NCBI GenBank assembly: GCA_036785375.1
Contig: JAWMAR010000107.1
Span: 2,728,001 to 2,792,000 of the forward strand
Source of the DNA: Leucoraja ocellata
Taxonomy: Eukaryota
Length of the DNA stretch: 64,000 nucleotides
Direction of reading: 5' to 3'
The position numbers were made by a program. Of the stretch, positions 42,201-48,200 are shown one piece after another (position 1 is the first letter of the stretch; each line of letters starts with the position of its first letter).

Positions 42201-45200
42201 CCCATCCGGACACTCCTCCCACAGGAAAAACACTATGTCTGTATACATGTAAATAGATTTATTTATTGAAATCATATTCTATGTCGCTCTTCCAGGGAGA
42301 TGCTAACTGCATTTCGTTGTCTCTGTACTGTACACTGACAATGACAATTTTACTTCGGAGTCACGTGAGTGACTACGTGAAGAACCCACCCAGCGCGCAG
42401 GCGCGGCATTACGTCAGCAGTGCAACAGCGGCAGCAGCTGGAGCCAGGCTCTCCAGCTGCAGCATAAAGACGAGACCTCAGGTAAGTGCCTTTTTTGTTT
42501 CAGAGTCGCGCTAGAGAGAATAATGGCCTCTCGCAAGCGACCAGCCAGGAGGACTGCCTGCCCTACTCCACCCGAGGACGGGTCCATAGCGGGACGGCAG
42601 CCTCTCGCAGCGGAGGAGCTTTTTCAACGCTCCCGCTCACCCGACACCGAGCCGCCCCCAGTGCTGCAAATCTCAACGCCCCGCACAGGGAGGAAGGCGA
42701 CACAGAAAACCGACCGGCCGGTGTCCTCCGATGATTCGGAGGAACGGGAACACTCTCCCCCACCGAAAAGGGGAGACGCTCGGATAAGCTGCATGAGGCA
42801 GCTCCTCGAACGTATGATTAATGAGGAGATGCGGCATCTCCCAGGAGGACGGGCTTTGGCCTCCTCCTCTCCACACCCTTCTGTACCCTCTATATTCGAG
42901 GGCAGTAAGGGAGGCCAGGACTGGGCTGGCCTATCCCAAGGGCAGGCGGAGGATATCGTCAGCATGCCGGGCGTGCCGGAAGAAGAGCTACTGGGTGTAG
43001 TGGGCCGATATGCGGCACCACCAACAACTGGGATGGTGTTGCCACCCAGAATGGCGGCAACTATAAACAGGCTGTCCAACAACCCGCTGCAGGACAAGGC
43101 TGTCCAGCAGGCCCTTGACAACTACATCGCGCCCGAAAATTGCGAGGCGCTGAGGGTCAAGACGGTAAATGGGCAGATCTGGAACCAGCTGGGGCAGCAC
43201 ATAAGGGCTCAGGAGGTCAAAATGCAGCGAGTCCTGAAGCTACACTCAGCAGCCGTCACCGCCTTTGCTCGGTCAGTTGGGGAGGAAGACCTGACCATAC
43301 CCCAGCAAGATGCCCTCGCACTGATGTGCGGCACCACGTACGAGCTAAACAACCTACGGCGGGACAACATCAGGCCTGCCCTCAACCCAACATATGCGGG
43401 CCTCTGTAAAGCTCCAGCGCCCGAACGACAGGCGCTGCTATTTGGTGCGGATCTGGCCAAAAGGCTCAAGGAGTTGGAAGAGGCGGCAAAACCAGTAGGC
43501 CTCATGAGGGCAGGGCCAGGACCGAGCAGGGCGAAGACACCCAGTTGGCCGCACGCCTCGGCAGCCACCAGCAGATACCGAGCTGGTGAAAGCCTGGTGA
43601 CCGCCTCCCACTACCCCCAGTGCTCTTTTTTAGAGCGGGGCCCAGGGCGGAGCCGTGGGAAGATGCGCCGCCCCACCGCAGCACCAACACGGACAACCTT
43701 GGGCCAGACCCACCGGAAACGACCCCACAAGTGAACATGGAGGTAGGTGGGTCTGGTTCCTGTCAACATACACAGACAAAGGGTGTAGTATTAACAGGGG
43801 GACGTTTGAGGTTCTTCAAGCATGTTTGGTGCTCCCTTACTAACAATCAGTTTATACTCAACAGTATTAGTGGATACAAGATTGAATTCAAACCAGGCGT
43901 AGAACCGCCAGTTCAGCACATGCCCCAAAGGGTGTTCCTTCCCTCGGCAGTTGAGAAGGTAGAAGGACAAGCTGAACTTGATCGGCTCGTGGCTAAAGGC
44001 ATCATAGAAATGACCACACACGAGCCGCAAGAATTTGTATCAAATATTTTTCTCAAAACTAAAAAAGATGGTGGATGTCGCATTATTATTGATCTGACAT
44101 CACTTAATCAGTCTGTTGAGTATCAACATTTCAAAATGGAGACATTTGTCACTGCCAGACAACTGATCTCCAAGGGATACTACATGGCAAGCATAGATAT
44201 CAAAGATGCTTACTATTTGGTACCCATTCATAAAGATTACTTTAAATATCTGAAATTTATCTGGAGGGGCCAGCTATGGCAGTACCGAGCTTTGCCCAAT
44301 GGTTTAACGACAGCTCCCAGACTATTTACGAAAATTCTTAAAGTGGCCATGAAGAAATTGAGAGAATTAAAACATTTAGTAGTGGCCTATCTGGACGATG
44401 TTCTCATATTAGGAAGAACACGGGATCAAGCTGTCGCAGGAGTGTTAGCCACTAAACGACTCCTTGAAACTTTGGGTTTTATCCTCCACCCAGATAAATC
44501 AATATTGGAGCCTACTACTAACATGGATTACTTAGGCTTCACTATTGACACGATTCACATGACTGTCACTCTGCCCAGAAACAAAACAGTTTCACTCATT
44601 GAAGCTTGTAGCCATTTAATTGCCACACCGCAACCTAGAATACGGCATGTAGCCAGAGTTATTGGCTCTATAGTAGCAGCATTTCCGGCTGCCCAACATG
44701 GGCCCTTGCATTATCAAAATCTCCAAAGAGCAAGGACTCATGCATTACGCCTTCATAGGGGGCATTATGATCGCAAAATGGATTTACCCGCTGAAGCCAA
44801 ATTAGAACTTCAGTGGTGGGTTGACAATATTTGGCACAGTCACAGTCCTATCACCGTAACCAATCCTAACATAACCATTGCAACGGATGCCAGTGCTTTA
44901 GGCTGGGGAGCTACTAACTCCAAAGACAGCACAGGTGGCAGATGGACTAATTCAGAGGCATCGCTACTACACTCACTGGGCATTAACTTTTTGGAAATGC
45001 TCGCCGCCTTTTATGGGCTAAAAGCATATGCATCTGGTATGCGACACGTGCATGTTAGAATTATGATCGACAACACTACGGCAGTATCTTATATCCAGCA
45101 CATGGGTGGCATTAAATCAGTATCATGCGACAAATTAACTGCTATAATCTGGCAATGGTGTGTCGAGAGACATATTTGGCTATCAGCTGCCTATTTACCA

Positions 45201-48200
45201 GGCAAGCTAAATTTAGTGGCGGACACCAGGTCACGAAAATTCAACGACAACATCGAATGGATGTTGGACCCAAAATCATTTGCTAAAATTATCAAGCAAT
45301 ATGGTACGCCAGATATAGATTTGTTTGCGTCTAGGTTAAATCACCAACTACCCATGTATGTGGCTTGGGAACCAGACCCAGAGGCAGCAGCGGTAGATGC
45401 CTTCACGCTGGACTGGGGAAATTTCTTTTTCTATGCTTTCCCTCCCTTCTGCCTCATCAGTCGGGTACTCCAGAAAATTCAGGCAGACTCAGCCTCTGGC
45501 ATTCTGGTCGTGCCCGACTGGCCTACCCAACCATGGTTCCCAATGTTCCACGACATGGTGGTAGAGACACCAATGGTCCTTCAACACCACCCCCAATTAT
45601 TGACTCACCCGGTAACTGGCATTAGCCATCCATGCCACCAAAAATTGAAACTCCTGGTTTCCAGATTTTGAACAGGCCTTACCGGGGATTGGGGTTATCA
45701 GACAGAACAATCACCACCATGTCGGCATCCCTGCGAGTTTCCACCAAGAAACAGTACCTGACCTTCATCAGGAAATGGGAACAGTACTGTCTGGACGCAG
45801 GGACATCCTACACGACGACTTCGATCTCGGATGTGCTGGAGTTCCTGGCCCACCTGCACCATGATCTCAAGATGAGCTACAGTGCCATCAACACGGCTCG
45901 GAGCGCACTGTCCGCATATCTAATGCCGATAGAACAGCATAGTGTGGGATCCCACCCTCTAGTCATCAGACTCCTTAAGGGGATCTTTAATACCAAACCC
46001 CCTACACCTAGATACACTCACATGTGGGATGTGAGTGTGGTTCTCACACACCTTCGAGGTTGGCCTCCGGTGGGATCCCTGAGCCTGGAACAGGCCACTT
46101 ACAAAACCCTCATGCTCATGGCGCTTGTCTCAGCTCAAAGGGTCCAGTCGCTCCATCAGCTTAATCTAAACTACATGGTGACCACCCCAGATACCATTAC
46201 TTTCACTATGCCGGGGTTGGTAAAACAAAGTAGACCAGGTACATCAAACTCCCCGATGATCTTCCGGGCTTACCCTCCAGAACCTAGGCTGTGTGTGGTG
46301 ACCCACCTTCAACATTATCTAGACACAACCCAAACGCTAAGAGGGAGAGAGAAAGCCTTATGGGTTAGCCACAGGAAGCCTTTTGGACGGGTAACCAGCC
46401 AAACATTATCCAGATGGTTGAAACAGGTCCTCAGCATGGCAGGGATTAACACTAATGTTTTTAAATCCCATTCAACCAGGGCAGCGTCCACCTCAGCGGC
46501 GGATAGGATGCAGGTTCCCCTCGACCACATCCTCAGGGCAGCGGGATGGTCAAGGGAATCGACATTCCAACGATTTTACAACAAACCGCTGATGGAACAG
46601 GACGTCTTTGCGGATACTGTTTTACAAACCGCAAAGTTATGATTTAAAGCCCATGGGAGCTATTTTGTTTTTGTTATAGTTAATAAATATTTCTTTTATA
46701 ACTAAACAAACTTGTTGGTCTCTAGCTACCACTTCCTCCCTCGATGACCTTTCGGCAGTGAGTGATATAACTGTTACACGGTTTGAAATCACAGACCTTT
46801 GAAGTCTTCACGTAGTCACTCACGTGACTCCGAAGTAAAATAGTAAGATTAAACGAGTACTTACCAGTACGAAGTTTGATCTGTATTTTATGAGGAGTTA
46901 CGATGAGGGATTACGTGCCCTCCGCTCCCACCCTCATTATATAGATCAAATTCGGACTAATGTCTCGTTGGTCTTCACTATCTTTACTTCAACTAGTGTC
47001 TATCTGTGATTCCACACCGCTGCTTGGAAGTATGCCGCGCCTGCGCGCTGGGTGGGTTCTTCACGTAATCCCTCATCGTAACTCCTCATAAAATACAGAT
47101 CAAACTTCGTACTGGTAAGTACTCGTTTAATCTTACTATTAAAGTTGAATCTGGGGTTTATAATAGCAGAGGGATTGTGCCTGCAATGGCAGAGAGATAG
47201 AAATTTGTACTGTCAGAGGAACATTGTCAAGTGGACTGGGTTTGTATTATGAGAAGGAACGTGTTTGAGTTGTTGCGTGAACTGTGTTTGTACTGTCAAA
47301 TGGTCAGTGTTTTGTGCTGCCCGACCACTGGTGCTTGCGTATCAACATGCTGTTATTACCCGATCATGAGTACACTCCACATCGACCTTGCTTGTATTGT
47401 CTGATGGACTGTGCTGTGCCAGATAACCAGATTAAAGTGTTTGCTTGCTGACCCCCACCGCTCAAATATTTCTGCCAACTCTGCAAGGTCAGAGCATAGA
47501 TGTTCTCAGTGAGGTTACCGTTTGCTCTGTGTAAATTGGTTGGCATATTAACTGGCCAGCACCAGGAAATACATTTCAAAAGGTGTTTGTTGGAGGGAAA
47601 TCTTTCTGGGACATACTGAAACATAATGCAGATTTTACTTTCCACCTTATTCTTCCTTTAGAAATGGATTCTCTGAATACCTTCGGGGGGGTCACTGATG
47701 AAAGGTAAACCTCCATTAAAAGACAGCCGTTTTCAAAGGGCTTGATACATTAAAAGGACTGCCATTAAAGGGACATCCCCATTATAGGTGTGCCAATCTT
47801 AAAAGGGTAGTTCCATTAATAGAGGGCCATAAATAAAAACACACAACTGTTTGTGTTGGTCCCTAATGTAAGGACATTTGAATTGGCGCCTACATGTAGT
47901 GTAATCTTGCTGCACGTGTGGGATTCAGCAACATTAACCTCTGTGTTATAATTGAAACAAACATTGTGCTCATTTGGGAACACCCTTTTTTAATATATAG
48001 TACAGCACACTCGCACAGACAGACACACACACACGCACGCGTGCACACATACATACATACGCTCACTTGTGCGCATGCATACACATGTGGGTACATGCAT
48101 GCCCATGCACACATGCACAAACACACATACACATGCACACACATATGTGTGCATATACACGCACACGCTGCACATGCACCCACACACAGCACGAACGCAG

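What the first reader, a model, noticed from the sequence alone, without database searches (positions are those of the whole stretch)
42347..47140. Intact, potentially active DIRS1-type YR retrotransposon
Seen: all three ORFs are open with catalytic motifs present (YLDD; RNase H D-E-D-D; YR R-HxxR-W-Y). ITRs match 36/36 and both ICR halves match perfectly (37/37, 79/79). The 5' third retains many CpGs, whereas flanking repeats are decayed. Inference: a very recent, possibly still mobile insertion, with ITRs that look short for a DIRS1-group element.
Basis: partly seen in the sequence, partly recalled or inferred. Interest (0 to 1): 0.68.

Follow-up and report, generated by a model that had tools for sequence, protein, structure and literature searches.

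The report
Intact DIRS1-like retrotransposon, short termini
This is a complete, young-looking copy of a known kind of jumping gene (a DIRS1-like retrotransposon that inserts with a tyrosine recombinase), ordinary in kind but unusual for a vertebrate in having very short end repeats.

Summary
Window 42347-47140 (+) is a 4794-bp DIRS1-like tyrosine-recombinase retrotransposon. It has three open frames: a gag-like ORF1, an RT/RNase H/methyltransferase-like ORF2 and a recombinase ORF3. [quoted passage not shown] The two ICR halves match the left end 37/37 and the right end 79/79 and overlap on a 3-nt junction. Candidate catalytic residues are present and invariant or nearly so in 42-43 relatives. 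A second, broken, related copy lies on the minus strand at 25135-28424.

Recency is supported but only bounded. No breaks in 4149 coding nt and 0 differences in 149 paired positions allow up to about 0.5-1.9% neutral divergence. The nearest public proteins differ at 13 of 1371 residues. Mobility is untested.

The ITRs total 63 nt, 3 nt below the 66-316 range tabulated for 28 elements. The whole end architecture matches the mollusc elements of that table, not its vertebrate ones. The nearest named relative is a little skate gene model at 69-75% identity.

Verdict: new member of a known kind, of modest interest.

The parts
42347..47140 (+). Whole element, 4794 bp, beginning and ending with ATT
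42347..42409 (+). Left terminus, which is the left ITR (63 nt). The 'divergent' part is 42347-42373 and the 'conserved' part 42374-42409. The first 37 nt are complementary to the left ICR half.
   Evidence: 37/37; 36/36; the divergent part pairs with 47068-47094 in about 20 of 28 columns. Terminology from PMC3266345.
42410..42522 (+). 5' leader. The first ATG of the element is the ORF1 start. A 5'-splice-site-like 9-mer lies at 42479-42487.
42523..43734 (+). ORF1, gag-like protein of 403 aa. The conserved core is about residues 150-335.
   Evidence: (1355 representatives at E<=0.001). No Pfam family and no PDB relative.
43737..45671 (+). ORF2, pol of 644 aa from the first ATG. The frame is open from 43620 and overlaps ORF1 by 115 nt.
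44061..44546 (+). Reverse transcriptase domain, containing YLDD
   Evidence: Pfam RVT_1, E 6.8e-19, residues 109-270. PDB retroviral, Ty3 and caulimovirus-type RTs.
44859..45236 (+). RNase H domain (approximate bounds) with D384, E420, D445 and D496
   Evidence: RT_RNaseH matches 15 of 42 relatives. The window's own Pfam match is sub-threshold at E 0.066.
45273..45548 (+). Methyltransferase-like domain (approximate bounds)
   Evidence: Dam matches 24 of 42 relatives and PCIF1_WW 26 of 42. The window's own matches are sub-threshold, E 0.16 and 0.095. The motif residues D528, F530, A531 and F568-F571 are shared by 42 of 42.
45632..46642 (+). ORF3, tyrosine recombinase of 336 aa. The SAM-like N-terminal domain is about 45725-45919 and the catalytic domain about 46091-46585. 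It overlaps ORF2 by 40 nt.
   Evidence: Pfam Phage_integrase at 30.3 bits against a cut-off of 27.1. The family profile hits Cre recombinase chains, best E 7.3e-4..
46805..46917 (+). Internal complementary region. The left half is 46805-46841 and the right half 46839-46917. They overlap on the junction AAT at 46839-46841.
47032..47140 (+). Right terminus (109 nt): conserved ITR 47032-47067, divergent ITR 47068-47094 and right extension 47095-47140
25135..28424 (-). Second, related DIRS1-like copy, broken and without a detectable 5' part. It has its own right terminus 25135-25216 and right ICR half 25353-25434. The recombinase remnant has outer bounds 25635-26538 and the pol remnant 26622-28424.
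41722..42165 (+). Neighbour: an open frame with an ALKBH8_N match, about 180 nt upstream of the insertion point. It is probably the tail of a LINE-type element.
   Evidence: (E 1.6e-06). The LINE reading is recalled knowledge, not tested.

Best explanation
A structurally complete, autonomous DIRS1-like (DIRS order, DIRS-like superfamily) tyrosine-recombinase retrotransposon. It sits beside a LINE-like fragment inside a decayed satellite, in what looks like a cartilaginous-fish genome.

Shown here: three open genes, all the expected catalytic residues, and termini and ICR in perfect register.

Inferred from the DIRS-1 model (Cappello et al., as summarised in PMC7192593 and PMC3266345):
1. [quoted passage not shown]
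2. The ends are rebuilt by annealing to the two ICR halves, which brings the right and left ends together on the 3-nt junction.
3. The recombinase then exchanges strands between that junction and an identical ATT in the target. The element ends up flanked by ATT with no target-site duplication.

How ORF2 and ORF3 are translated is not known. ORF2's first ATG lies 2 nt after the ORF1 stop. A -1 frameshift at a U UUU UUA heptamer in the overlap is a weaker alternative.

The copy is young, at most about 1-2% neutral divergence, and belongs to a family with other near-identical members. Whether it can still move is open.
For: - ORFs and Pfam.
- Catalytic residues: shared by 42 of 42 or 43 of 43 relatives, except Y218 (38 of 42) and R283 (42 of 43).
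- RT: the family profile hits Ty3 and a caulimovirus-type polyprotein at about E 1e-27. A second stretch covers their RNase H parts, where the chains carry D, E, D (N in 4ol8_A) and D inside the same short motifs as the window's protein.
- Recombinase: the family profile hits 18 distinct PDB sequences at E<=0.01, 17 of them Cre or Tre and 1 XerC-like. HSxR and W align.
- Termini: 37/37, 79/79 and 36/36, a 3-nt overlap of the ICR halves, and ATT at both ends.
- No direct repeats inside the element.
- The layout matches Table 3 of PMC3266345. The gene order matches the Xenopus DIRS-like elements.
- Youth: 0 breaks in 4149 coding nt and 0 of 149 paired positions different. CpG observed/expected is 0.65, against 0.46 in the broken copy and 0.37 elsewhere.
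- Family: proteins from public read assemblies are 399/403, 643/644 and 316/324 identical.
- Cis sequences are conserved between the two copies: left ICR half 37/37, against 63-74% in the spacers and about 50% at protein level.
Against: - No genome-wide census was possible, so copy number and the age spectrum are unknown.
- The nearest public proteins are not identical (13 of 1371 residues differ), and none of the window's own ORF proteins is in the collection.
- ORF2 and ORF3 have a CpG observed/expected of only about 0.5.
- The 79/79 pair lies only 144 nt apart, so homogenisation between the arms could inflate apparent youth (inference). The broken copy still has 80/82.
- The methyltransferase-like and RNase H Pfam matches of the window's own protein are below threshold.
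- ORF1 has no named family or solved relative.
- The only AATAAA (46682) lies upstream of the ICR. If used, it would give transcripts unable to rebuild the ends.
- There are no data on expression, methylation or polymorphism.
Confidence: 0.85

Rival explanations
1. The copy looks intact but is no longer mobile. Either the family has recently died out, or this copy carries missense or cis defects or is silenced, so the open frames simply reflect too little time to decay.
For: - The bound from intact ORFs still allows 0.5-1.9% divergence.
- The nearest relatives differ at 13 of 1371 residues.
- CpG observed/expected in ORF2 and ORF3 is about 0.5, as expected for a methylated lineage.
- There is no evidence of expression.
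Against: - Every invariant catalytic residue examined is kept.
- The termini and ICR are in perfect register.
- Other near-identical full-length ORF1 and ORF2 proteins exist on up to 4-5 contigs of public read assemblies.
Confidence: 0.35
2. Assembly artefact. A high-copy young repeat was collapsed or polished towards the family average, which gives an artificially perfect copy at this locus.
For: The window has assembly gaps or masked stretches at 29194-29366 and 29463-29986. Young repeats are prone to collapse (general knowledge).
Against: - Both junctions join the element to non-repeated flanks. No other copy of the immediate flanks exists in the window.
- The broken copy 17 kb away was assembled with its defects.
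- Public proteins differ from this copy at specific residues, as expected for real distinct copies.
Confidence: 0.05
3. Domesticated host gene or genes derived from a DIRS element and kept open by selection on the host.
For: The nearest named relative is annotated as an ordinary 'uncharacterized protein' gene model in a skate.
Against: - All three genes plus perfect termini and ICR are kept, and a host function would not need the termini and ICR.
- The skate model is an RNase H/MT-to-recombinase fusion, typical of automatic annotation over a transposon.
- The protein families have 685 to more than 1300 relatives.
Confidence: 0.02
4. A PAT-like or Ngaro-like element rather than a DIRS1-like one.
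For: These groups share RT/RNase H and the recombinase. PAT-like elements also have the MT domain and are close to DIRS-like elements in trees (PMC6681497 passages).
Against: - These groups are defined by split direct repeats. None is present: one search found only flank-satellite direct repeats.
- Inverted termini plus an ICR are present.
- Ngaro elements lack the MT domain, whereas this family has it.
Confidence: 0.01

Closest known systems
Mollusc DIRS1-like elements LgDIRS1, LgDIRS3 (Lottia gigantea) and AcaDIRS1, AcaDIRS2 (Aplysia californica), as annotated in Table 3 of PMC3266345 (section read)
   Same: - Size: 4680-5808 bp there, 4794 bp here.
- ATT at both ends and an AAT junction.
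- No long ORF overlap.
- Short conserved ITR: 31-36 nt there, 36 here.
- A divergent ITR of similar size: 30-36 nt there, 27 here.
- Right extension: 48-49 nt there, 46 here.
- ICR halves: 39-45 and 86-88 nt there, 37 and 79 here.
   Different: The host is a vertebrate-like genome. The total ITR of 63 nt is 3 nt below their minimum of 66. Sequence relatedness to these elements could not be tested, because no sequences were available to me. Additional File 3 of that paper, with the detailed annotation, was not seen.
Leucoraja erinacea (little skate) gene model LOC129695449 (P0122), with LOC129708389 (P0140)
   Same: These are the nearest named relatives. P0122 is 225/302 (75%) identical to ORF2 residues 348-644 and 189/274 (69%) identical to ORF3. 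P0140 is 155/302 (51%) identical to ORF3.
   Different: P0122 is a fused RNase H/MT-recombinase model without RT or gag. Its termini and genomic context are unknown. At 69-75% identity it belongs to a different family.
Xenopus DIRS-like families, e.g. DIRS-37_XT (PMC9210276, passages seen)
   Same: The gene order is gag, then RT/RH/MT, then YR. They have ITRs plus an ICR, the same trinucleotide at both ends, and copies judged potentially active by the same structural criteria.
   Different: - Their ITRs are about 120 nt.
- Their ends are TTT.
- Their ORF2 and ORF3 overlap.
- Their ORF1 has a predicted LAP2alpha domain, which none of the 46 ORF1 relatives here matched in Pfam.
Their supplementary tables were not seen.
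DIRS-1 of Dictyostelium discoideum, the prototype (PMC7192593 and PMC3266345, passages seen)
   Same: It has inverted termini and an ICR exactly complementary to both extremities (33 + 55 nt there, 37 + 79 here). It lacks a DDE integrase. The ICR was shown there to be essential.
   Different: Its terminal repeats are about 300 nt. Its gene order is given as GAG, YR, pol with a long overlap. Its host is an amoebozoan. Its junction trinucleotide is different.
The broken second copy in this window (25135-28424, minus strand)
   Same: It has the same end architecture, with a right terminus against right ICR half of 80/82, and it ends in ATT. Its left ICR half is 37/37 identical to this element's.
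   Different: It is about 50% identical at protein level over its open pieces and 72% at nucleotide level over the 3' 730 nt. Its pol and recombinase are broken many times. No ORF1 or left terminus was found for it.

Membership tests
DIRS1-like (DIRS-like superfamily, order DIRS) | Reverse transcriptase of the Ty3/Gypsy-retrovirus type with Y(L/I)DD | tested here: met
   RVT_1 at E 6.8e-19. The best PDB profile hits are a caulimovirus-type polyprotein and Ty3 at about E 1e-27. YLDD is present, with D220 and D221 shared by 42 of 42 relatives.
DIRS1-like (DIRS-like superfamily, order DIRS) | RNase H domain with four carboxylates, downstream of RT | tested here: met
   A second stretch of the profile aligns to the RNase H parts of 8r0s_A (stretch E 7.3e-05) and Ty3 (0.13-0.15). 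D384, E420, D445 and D496 are each shared by 42 of 42 relatives. The window's own Pfam match is sub-threshold (E 0.066). That these are the catalytic residues in Ty3 is recalled knowledge.
DIRS1-like (DIRS-like superfamily, order DIRS) | Methyltransferase-like domain after RNase H | tested here: inconclusive
   Dam matches 24 of 42 relatives and PCIF1_WW 26 of 42 at E<=0.01. The window's own protein reaches only E 0.16 and 0.095. The motif residues are invariant.
DIRS1-like (DIRS-like superfamily, order DIRS) | Tyrosine recombinase (R-K-HxxR-W/H-Y) in place of a DDE integrase; no aspartic protease | tested here: met
   Phage_integrase scores above its cut-off. The profile hits Cre recombinase. 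R170, K198, H280, W306 and Y316 are shared by 43 of 43 relatives and R283 by 42 of 43. No integrase or protease family matched the three ORFs at E<=0.01.
DIRS1-like (DIRS-like superfamily, order DIRS) | Inverted terminal repeats | tested here: met
   The core is 36/36, and a divergent part brings the ITR to 63 nt.
DIRS1-like (DIRS-like superfamily, order DIRS) | Internal complementary region whose two halves complement the two extremities and overlap on a 3-nt junction | tested here: met
   37/37 and 79/79, with the overlap AAT at 46839-46841.
DIRS1-like (DIRS-like superfamily, order DIRS) | Same trinucleotide at both ends, complementary to the junction, and no target-site duplication | tested here: met
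   ATT lies at 42347-42349 and 47138-47140. The bases outside differ. The empty site itself could not be examined, because the window holds no paralogous copy of the flanks.
DIRS1-like (DIRS-like superfamily, order DIRS) | gag-like first ORF | tested here: inconclusive
   ORF1 belongs to a large family: 1355 representatives at E<=0.001. It has no Pfam family (no family shared by more than 1 of 46 members) and no PDB relative. 'gag-like' rests on its position only.
PAT-like / Ngaro-like / VIPER-like | Split direct repeats (A1 ... B1 A2 B2) | tested here: not met
   No direct repeat lies within 42347-47140. The only direct-repeat families in 41500-48000 are flank-satellite units.
Actively transposing element | Insertion polymorphism, identical sister copies, transcripts, replication intermediates | not testable with these tools
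   No eukaryotic genome, read or expression collection was available. Only near-identical proteins from public read assemblies were seen.

The most novel reading that the evidence does not exclude
This is a live representative of a DIRS1-like lineage in cartilaginous fishes that keeps the 'invertebrate' end architecture: ATT ends, about 63-nt ITRs, a 46-nt right extension and no long ORF overlap. That architecture has so far been tabulated only for molluscs, and it differs from the 113-167-nt-ITR, GTT/TTT/CTT-ended elements of bony vertebrates. If so, either an old metazoan lineage survives in elasmobranchs, or, less likely, it was acquired horizontally from marine invertebrates. Of the 120 listed recombinase relatives, 6 carry an organism name: 2 skate, 3 echinoderm and 1 bivalve, with no teleost, amphibian or reptile. 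That is compatible with this reading but weak.
Probability: 0.25. Interest if true: 0.45.

Novelty: new member of a known kind. Interest (0 to 1): 0.3.

Why it matters
Few structurally perfect DIRS1-like copies have been described in vertebrates, and my two literature searches found none described for cartilaginous fishes in any detail. One search gave general surveys only and one search gave 0 papers; Repbase and Dfam could not be consulted.

A complete copy gives a clean reference for annotating this family in a repeat-rich genome. It also extends the known range of terminal architectures slightly.

Comparison with the broken neighbour shows that the left-end/ICR sequence is far more conserved than the genes: 37/37, against about 50% protein identity. 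That points to where the cis-acting recognition sequences lie.

It does not change how the class is understood.

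Tried and rejected
- Single-sequence PDB searches gave nothing meaningful for ORF3, ORF1 or the ORF2 C-terminal half. The ORF1 family profile had 0 PDB hits at E<=1.
- Exact look-up of four ORF translations found none in the collection.
- I searched the window for a paralogous uninterrupted copy of the insertion site and found none. Only a ~180-nt repeat further out and satellite relics matched.
- Rfam at gathering threshold found 0 matches and tRNA search 0. Rfam at E<=1 on the ~180-nt repeat gave two chance-level hits.
- Pfam on 191 stop-to-stop frames of 75 aa or more outside the element gave only ALKBH8_N and a weak Phage_integrase match in the broken copy.
- A -1 frameshift site in the ORF1/ORF2 overlap remains a lead only. 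There is one in-register U UUU UUA, but such heptamers occur at 6 of 1377 in-register positions, and the downstream fold is no better than shuffles (z 0.21).
- I considered whether the broken copy's 80/82 arm identity is too high for its decay. With at least 12 breaks the expectation is about 5 or more mismatches, so the excess is not significant.
- The prokaryote genome collection and the phage, plasmid and E. coli collections were not searched, as they are irrelevant to a vertebrate transposon.
- Nothing in the window was taken for human.

Full report
**What is there**

Window 42347-47140 (+) holds three long open frames, each in the -1 frame relative to the one before it:
- ORF1, 42523-43734, 403 aa.
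- ORF2, open from 43620; its first ATG at 43737 lies 2 nt after the ORF1 stop. It ends at 45671 and gives 644 aa from that ATG.
- ORF3, 45632-46642, 336 aa, overlapping ORF2 by 40 nt.

The first ATG of the whole element is the ORF1 start. Pfam gives RVT_1 for ORF2 (E 6.8e-19). For ORF3 it gives Phage_integrase (30.3 bits against a cut-off of 27.1) plus SAM-like N-terminal domains. ORF1 matches nothing.

**Termini**

- Left end 42347-42383 against 46805-46841: 37/37.
- Right end 47062-47140 against 46839-46917: 79/79.
- ITR core 42374-42409 against 47032-47067: 36/36.

Complementarity stops at the first base beyond each arm in five of six directions. Outward of the left end, one mismatch is followed by two chance matches. 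The two internal halves overlap on AAT (46839-46841), the complement of the ATT found at both ends.

In the vocabulary of Piednoel et al. 2011 (PMC3266345; section 10 with Table 3 read), the element has:
- a divergent ITR of 27 nt;
- a conserved ITR of 36 nt;
- a right extension of 46 nt;
- no left extension;
- ICR halves of 37 and 79 nt.

The 3' region folds as single-stranded DNA into the 79-bp hairpin, and none of 100 shuffles folds as well. [quoted passage not shown]

**Proteins**

ORF2 has 1381 relatives at E<=0.001 among 8000 scored candidates. ORF3 has 685 among 3338. ORF1 has 4 by the word-indexed search but 1355 representatives by the full HMMER scan, with a conserved core at about residues 150-335.

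In an alignment of ORF2 with 41 relatives, and of ORF3 with 42, the expected residues are conserved:
- RT: D154, D220 and D221 are shared by 42 of 42, and Y218 by 38 of 42.
- Four acidic residues, D384, E420, D445 and D496, are each shared by 42 of 42.
- Recombinase: R170, K198, H280, W306 and Y316 are shared by 43 of 43, and R283 by 42 of 43.

The ORF2 family profile hits a caulimovirus-type polyprotein chain (8r0s_A) and Ty3 RT/RNase H (4ol8_A, 7q5b_A) at about E 1e-27. A second stretch covers their RNase H parts (stretch E 7.3e-05, 0.15 and 0.13). In the printed chain rows, D, E, D (N in 4ol8_A) and D sit in the same short motifs that the window's protein carries. That these are the catalytic carboxylates is recalled knowledge.

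The ORF3 family profile hits 18 distinct PDB sequences at E<=0.01: 17 Cre or Tre recombinases and one XerC-like. The HSxR and W columns align.

The methyltransferase-like domain is supported at family level only. Dam matches 24 of 42 relatives and PCIF1_WW 26 of 42. The window's own protein reaches only E 0.16 and 0.095.

ORF1 has no Pfam family (no family shared by more than 1 of 46 relatives) and no solved relative. Calling it gag-like rests on its position.

**Where it sits**

The window is repeat-rich, with no recognisable host exon. Of 191 stop-to-stop frames of 75 aa or more outside the element, only two have a Pfam match at E<=0.001.

About 180 nt upstream of the insertion point, an open frame (41722-42165) matches ALKBH8_N (E 1.6e-06). 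Its look-alike clusters are chordate. From memory this domain is common at the end of fish LINE proteins, which I did not test.

Both flanks carry relics of the 23-nt satellite that forms an array at 38295-38864. The order satellite, then LINE-like fragment, then this element fits the element being the youngest layer.

The nearest named relatives are little skate (Leucoraja erinacea) gene models. P0122 is 75% identical to the RNase H/MT part and 69% to the recombinase. I did not try to identify the source organism further. Nothing was taken for human.

**A second copy**

On the minus strand, 25135-28424 holds a related DIRS1-like copy.
- It has its own right terminus and right ICR half, 80/82 complementary, and it ends in ATT.
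- With 300 nt of flank offered, similarity between the two copies stops exactly at 47140. This independently fixes the right boundary.
- Its pol remnant survives in at least 9 open pieces, with at least 2 joins across stops and at least 6 changes of frame. Its recombinase survives in at least 5 pieces, with at least 1 and at least 3. A cruder count gave 14 and 7 in-frame stops inside HSPs.
- A simple-repeat expansion lies within it.
- No ORF1-family match and no left terminus were found for it anywhere in the window. Its 5' side runs towards the N runs, which I did not enter.
- Over open pieces it is about 50% identical to the intact element at protein level, so it belongs to a different family.
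- Yet its left ICR half is 37/37 identical. The right half is 66/76, the right extension 41/46 and the divergent ITR 24/27 identical, against 63-74% in the spacers. The cis sequences are thus the most conserved part.

**How young**

Three lines of internal evidence bear on age:
- About 4% of possible substitutions in the three ORFs would create a stop. With no break in 4149 coding nt, the 95% bound on neutral divergence is 1.8-1.9% from stops alone, and about 0.5% if one assumes 0.1 indels per substitution (the indel rate is my assumption).
- Zero differences in 149 paired terminus/ICR/ITR positions bounds divergence at about 1% per lineage.
- CpG observed/expected is 0.65 in the element, 0.46 in the broken copy and 0.37 in the rest of the window.

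Two caveats apply. The 79-nt arms lie only 144 nt apart and might be homogenised (inference). ORF2 and ORF3 have a CpG observed/expected of only about 0.5.

Outside the window, proteins from public read assemblies are 399/403, 643/644 and 316/324 identical to ORF1-3. The first two come from clusters whose longest contig is 4491 nt, and they were seen on 5 and 4 contigs. None of the window's own proteins is in the collection.

So close sister copies or alleles exist, some with full-length frames. I cannot say whether they are genomic or transcribed, nor from which organism.

**Mechanism**

The mechanism is inferred from the prototype. In Dictyostelium DIRS-1 the transcript lacks most of the left repeat and almost all of the right repeat. 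cDNA is mostly linear and single-stranded. The ICR is essential for completing retrotransposition, and the RT acts in trans (PMC7192593, passages).

The model of Cappello et al., as summarised there and in PMC3266345, rebuilds the ends on the ICR. It then joins them at the 3-nt junction and recombines that junction with an identical target trinucleotide, without a target duplication. Every sequence requirement of that model is met here. None of its steps was observed.

Translation of ORF2 could start at its own ATG, 2 nt after the ORF1 stop. It could also follow a -1 slip at an in-register U UUU UUA, two codons after the ORF2 frame opens. That heptamer type occurs at 6 of 1377 in-register positions, and the downstream fold is not better than shuffles, so the slip is only a lead. 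The ORF2/ORF3 overlap has no such site.

**Comparison with what is known**

- Gene order (gag, RT/RH/MT, YR) is that of the Xenopus DIRS-like families. Those have ITRs of about 120 nt, TTT ends, overlapping ORFs and a LAP2alpha-like ORF1 (PMC9210276 passages). None of the 46 ORF1 relatives here matched that domain.
- In Table 3 of PMC3266345 the ITRs (divergent plus conserved parts) of 28 elements range from 66 to 316 nt. The eight vertebrate entries have 113-167 nt and CTT, TTT or GTT ends.
- The mollusc entries LgDIRS1, LgDIRS3, AcaDIRS1 and AcaDIRS2 have ATT ends, an AAT junction, no long ORF overlap, divergent parts of 30-36 nt and conserved parts of 31-36 nt, a 48-49-nt right extension and ICR halves of 39-45 and 86-88 nt.
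- This element (27 + 36 nt, 46 nt, 37/79 nt, ATT, 4794 bp) is of that type.

Of the 120 listed recombinase relatives, 6 carry an organism name: 2 skate, 3 echinoderm and 1 bivalve. That is compatible with a lineage distinct from the bony-vertebrate ones but is weak evidence, since most hits are unnamed.

Literature searches:
- DIRS with 'internal complementary region' and 'tyrosine recombinase': 13 papers.
- DIRS with 'retrotransposon' and 'shark': 23 papers.
- DIRS with 'cartilaginous fish' and 'transposable elements': 14 papers.
- DIRS with 'skate' and 'retrotransposons': 0 papers.

From their listings, and from passages of PMC4350176, I saw only general surveys.

**Verdict**

This is a new, structurally perfect member of a known kind. 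Youth is bounded, not dated, and mobility is unknown. Interest is modest.

Noticed in passing
window 25135-28424 (-): A second DIRS1-like copy of a different family, about 50% protein identity over open pieces. It is broken many times, contains a simple-repeat expansion, and has no detectable ORF1 or left end. Its left ICR half is 37/37 identical to the intact element's.
   Followed up: yes
window 43626-43632 (+): An in-register U UUU UUA heptamer lies two codons after the ORF2 frame opens inside ORF1, and ORF2 is in the -1 frame. A 9-bp GC-rich stem starts 6 nt downstream, but the fold is no better than shuffles (z 0.21), and such heptamers occur at 6 of 1377 in-register positions.
   Followed up: partly
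window 42479-42503 (+): In the 5' leader, a consensus-like 5' splice-site 9-mer is followed within about 22 nt by a pyrimidine tract plus AG, which looks too close to form an intron. I did not test whether the donor serves for subgenomic messages, and I built no spliced model.
   Followed up: no
window 46682 (+): The only AATAAA in the element lies 40 nt after the ORF3 stop and upstream of the ICR. Transcripts ending there would code for the proteins but could not rebuild the ends.
   Followed up: no
window 41722-42165 (+): An open frame with an ALKBH8_N match (E 1.6e-06), about 180 nt upstream of the insertion. It is probably the tail of a LINE-type element, which is a recalled association.
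   Followed up: partly
window 41291-41469 (+), 48918-49086 (-), 50787-50961 (+), 57603-57756 (-), and weaker copies: A repeat of about 180 nt, with copies about 79% alike, ends in short 8-nt tandem units. It has no tRNA or Rfam match. It looks like the 3' tails of a LINE or SINE family.
   Followed up: partly
window 38295-38864, with relics at 41628-41802 and 47156-47312: A 23-nt satellite array (24.9 copies, 87% matches). Decayed units flank the element on both sides.
   Followed up: partly
window 63023-63366, 53976-54181 and 60544-60893: Further tandem arrays: a 25-nt unit (13.8 copies, 96% matches), a 22-nt unit (9.2 copies) and G-rich 17-62-nt units.
   Followed up: no
window 29194-29366 and 29463-29986: Two N runs of 173 and 524 nt, just beyond the 5' side of the broken copy. 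I did not enter or fill them.
   Followed up: no
window 40001-41000: A GC-rich stretch (GC 0.55) with a strong C-over-G skew (-0.37) and long open frames on both strands without any Pfam match.
   Followed up: no
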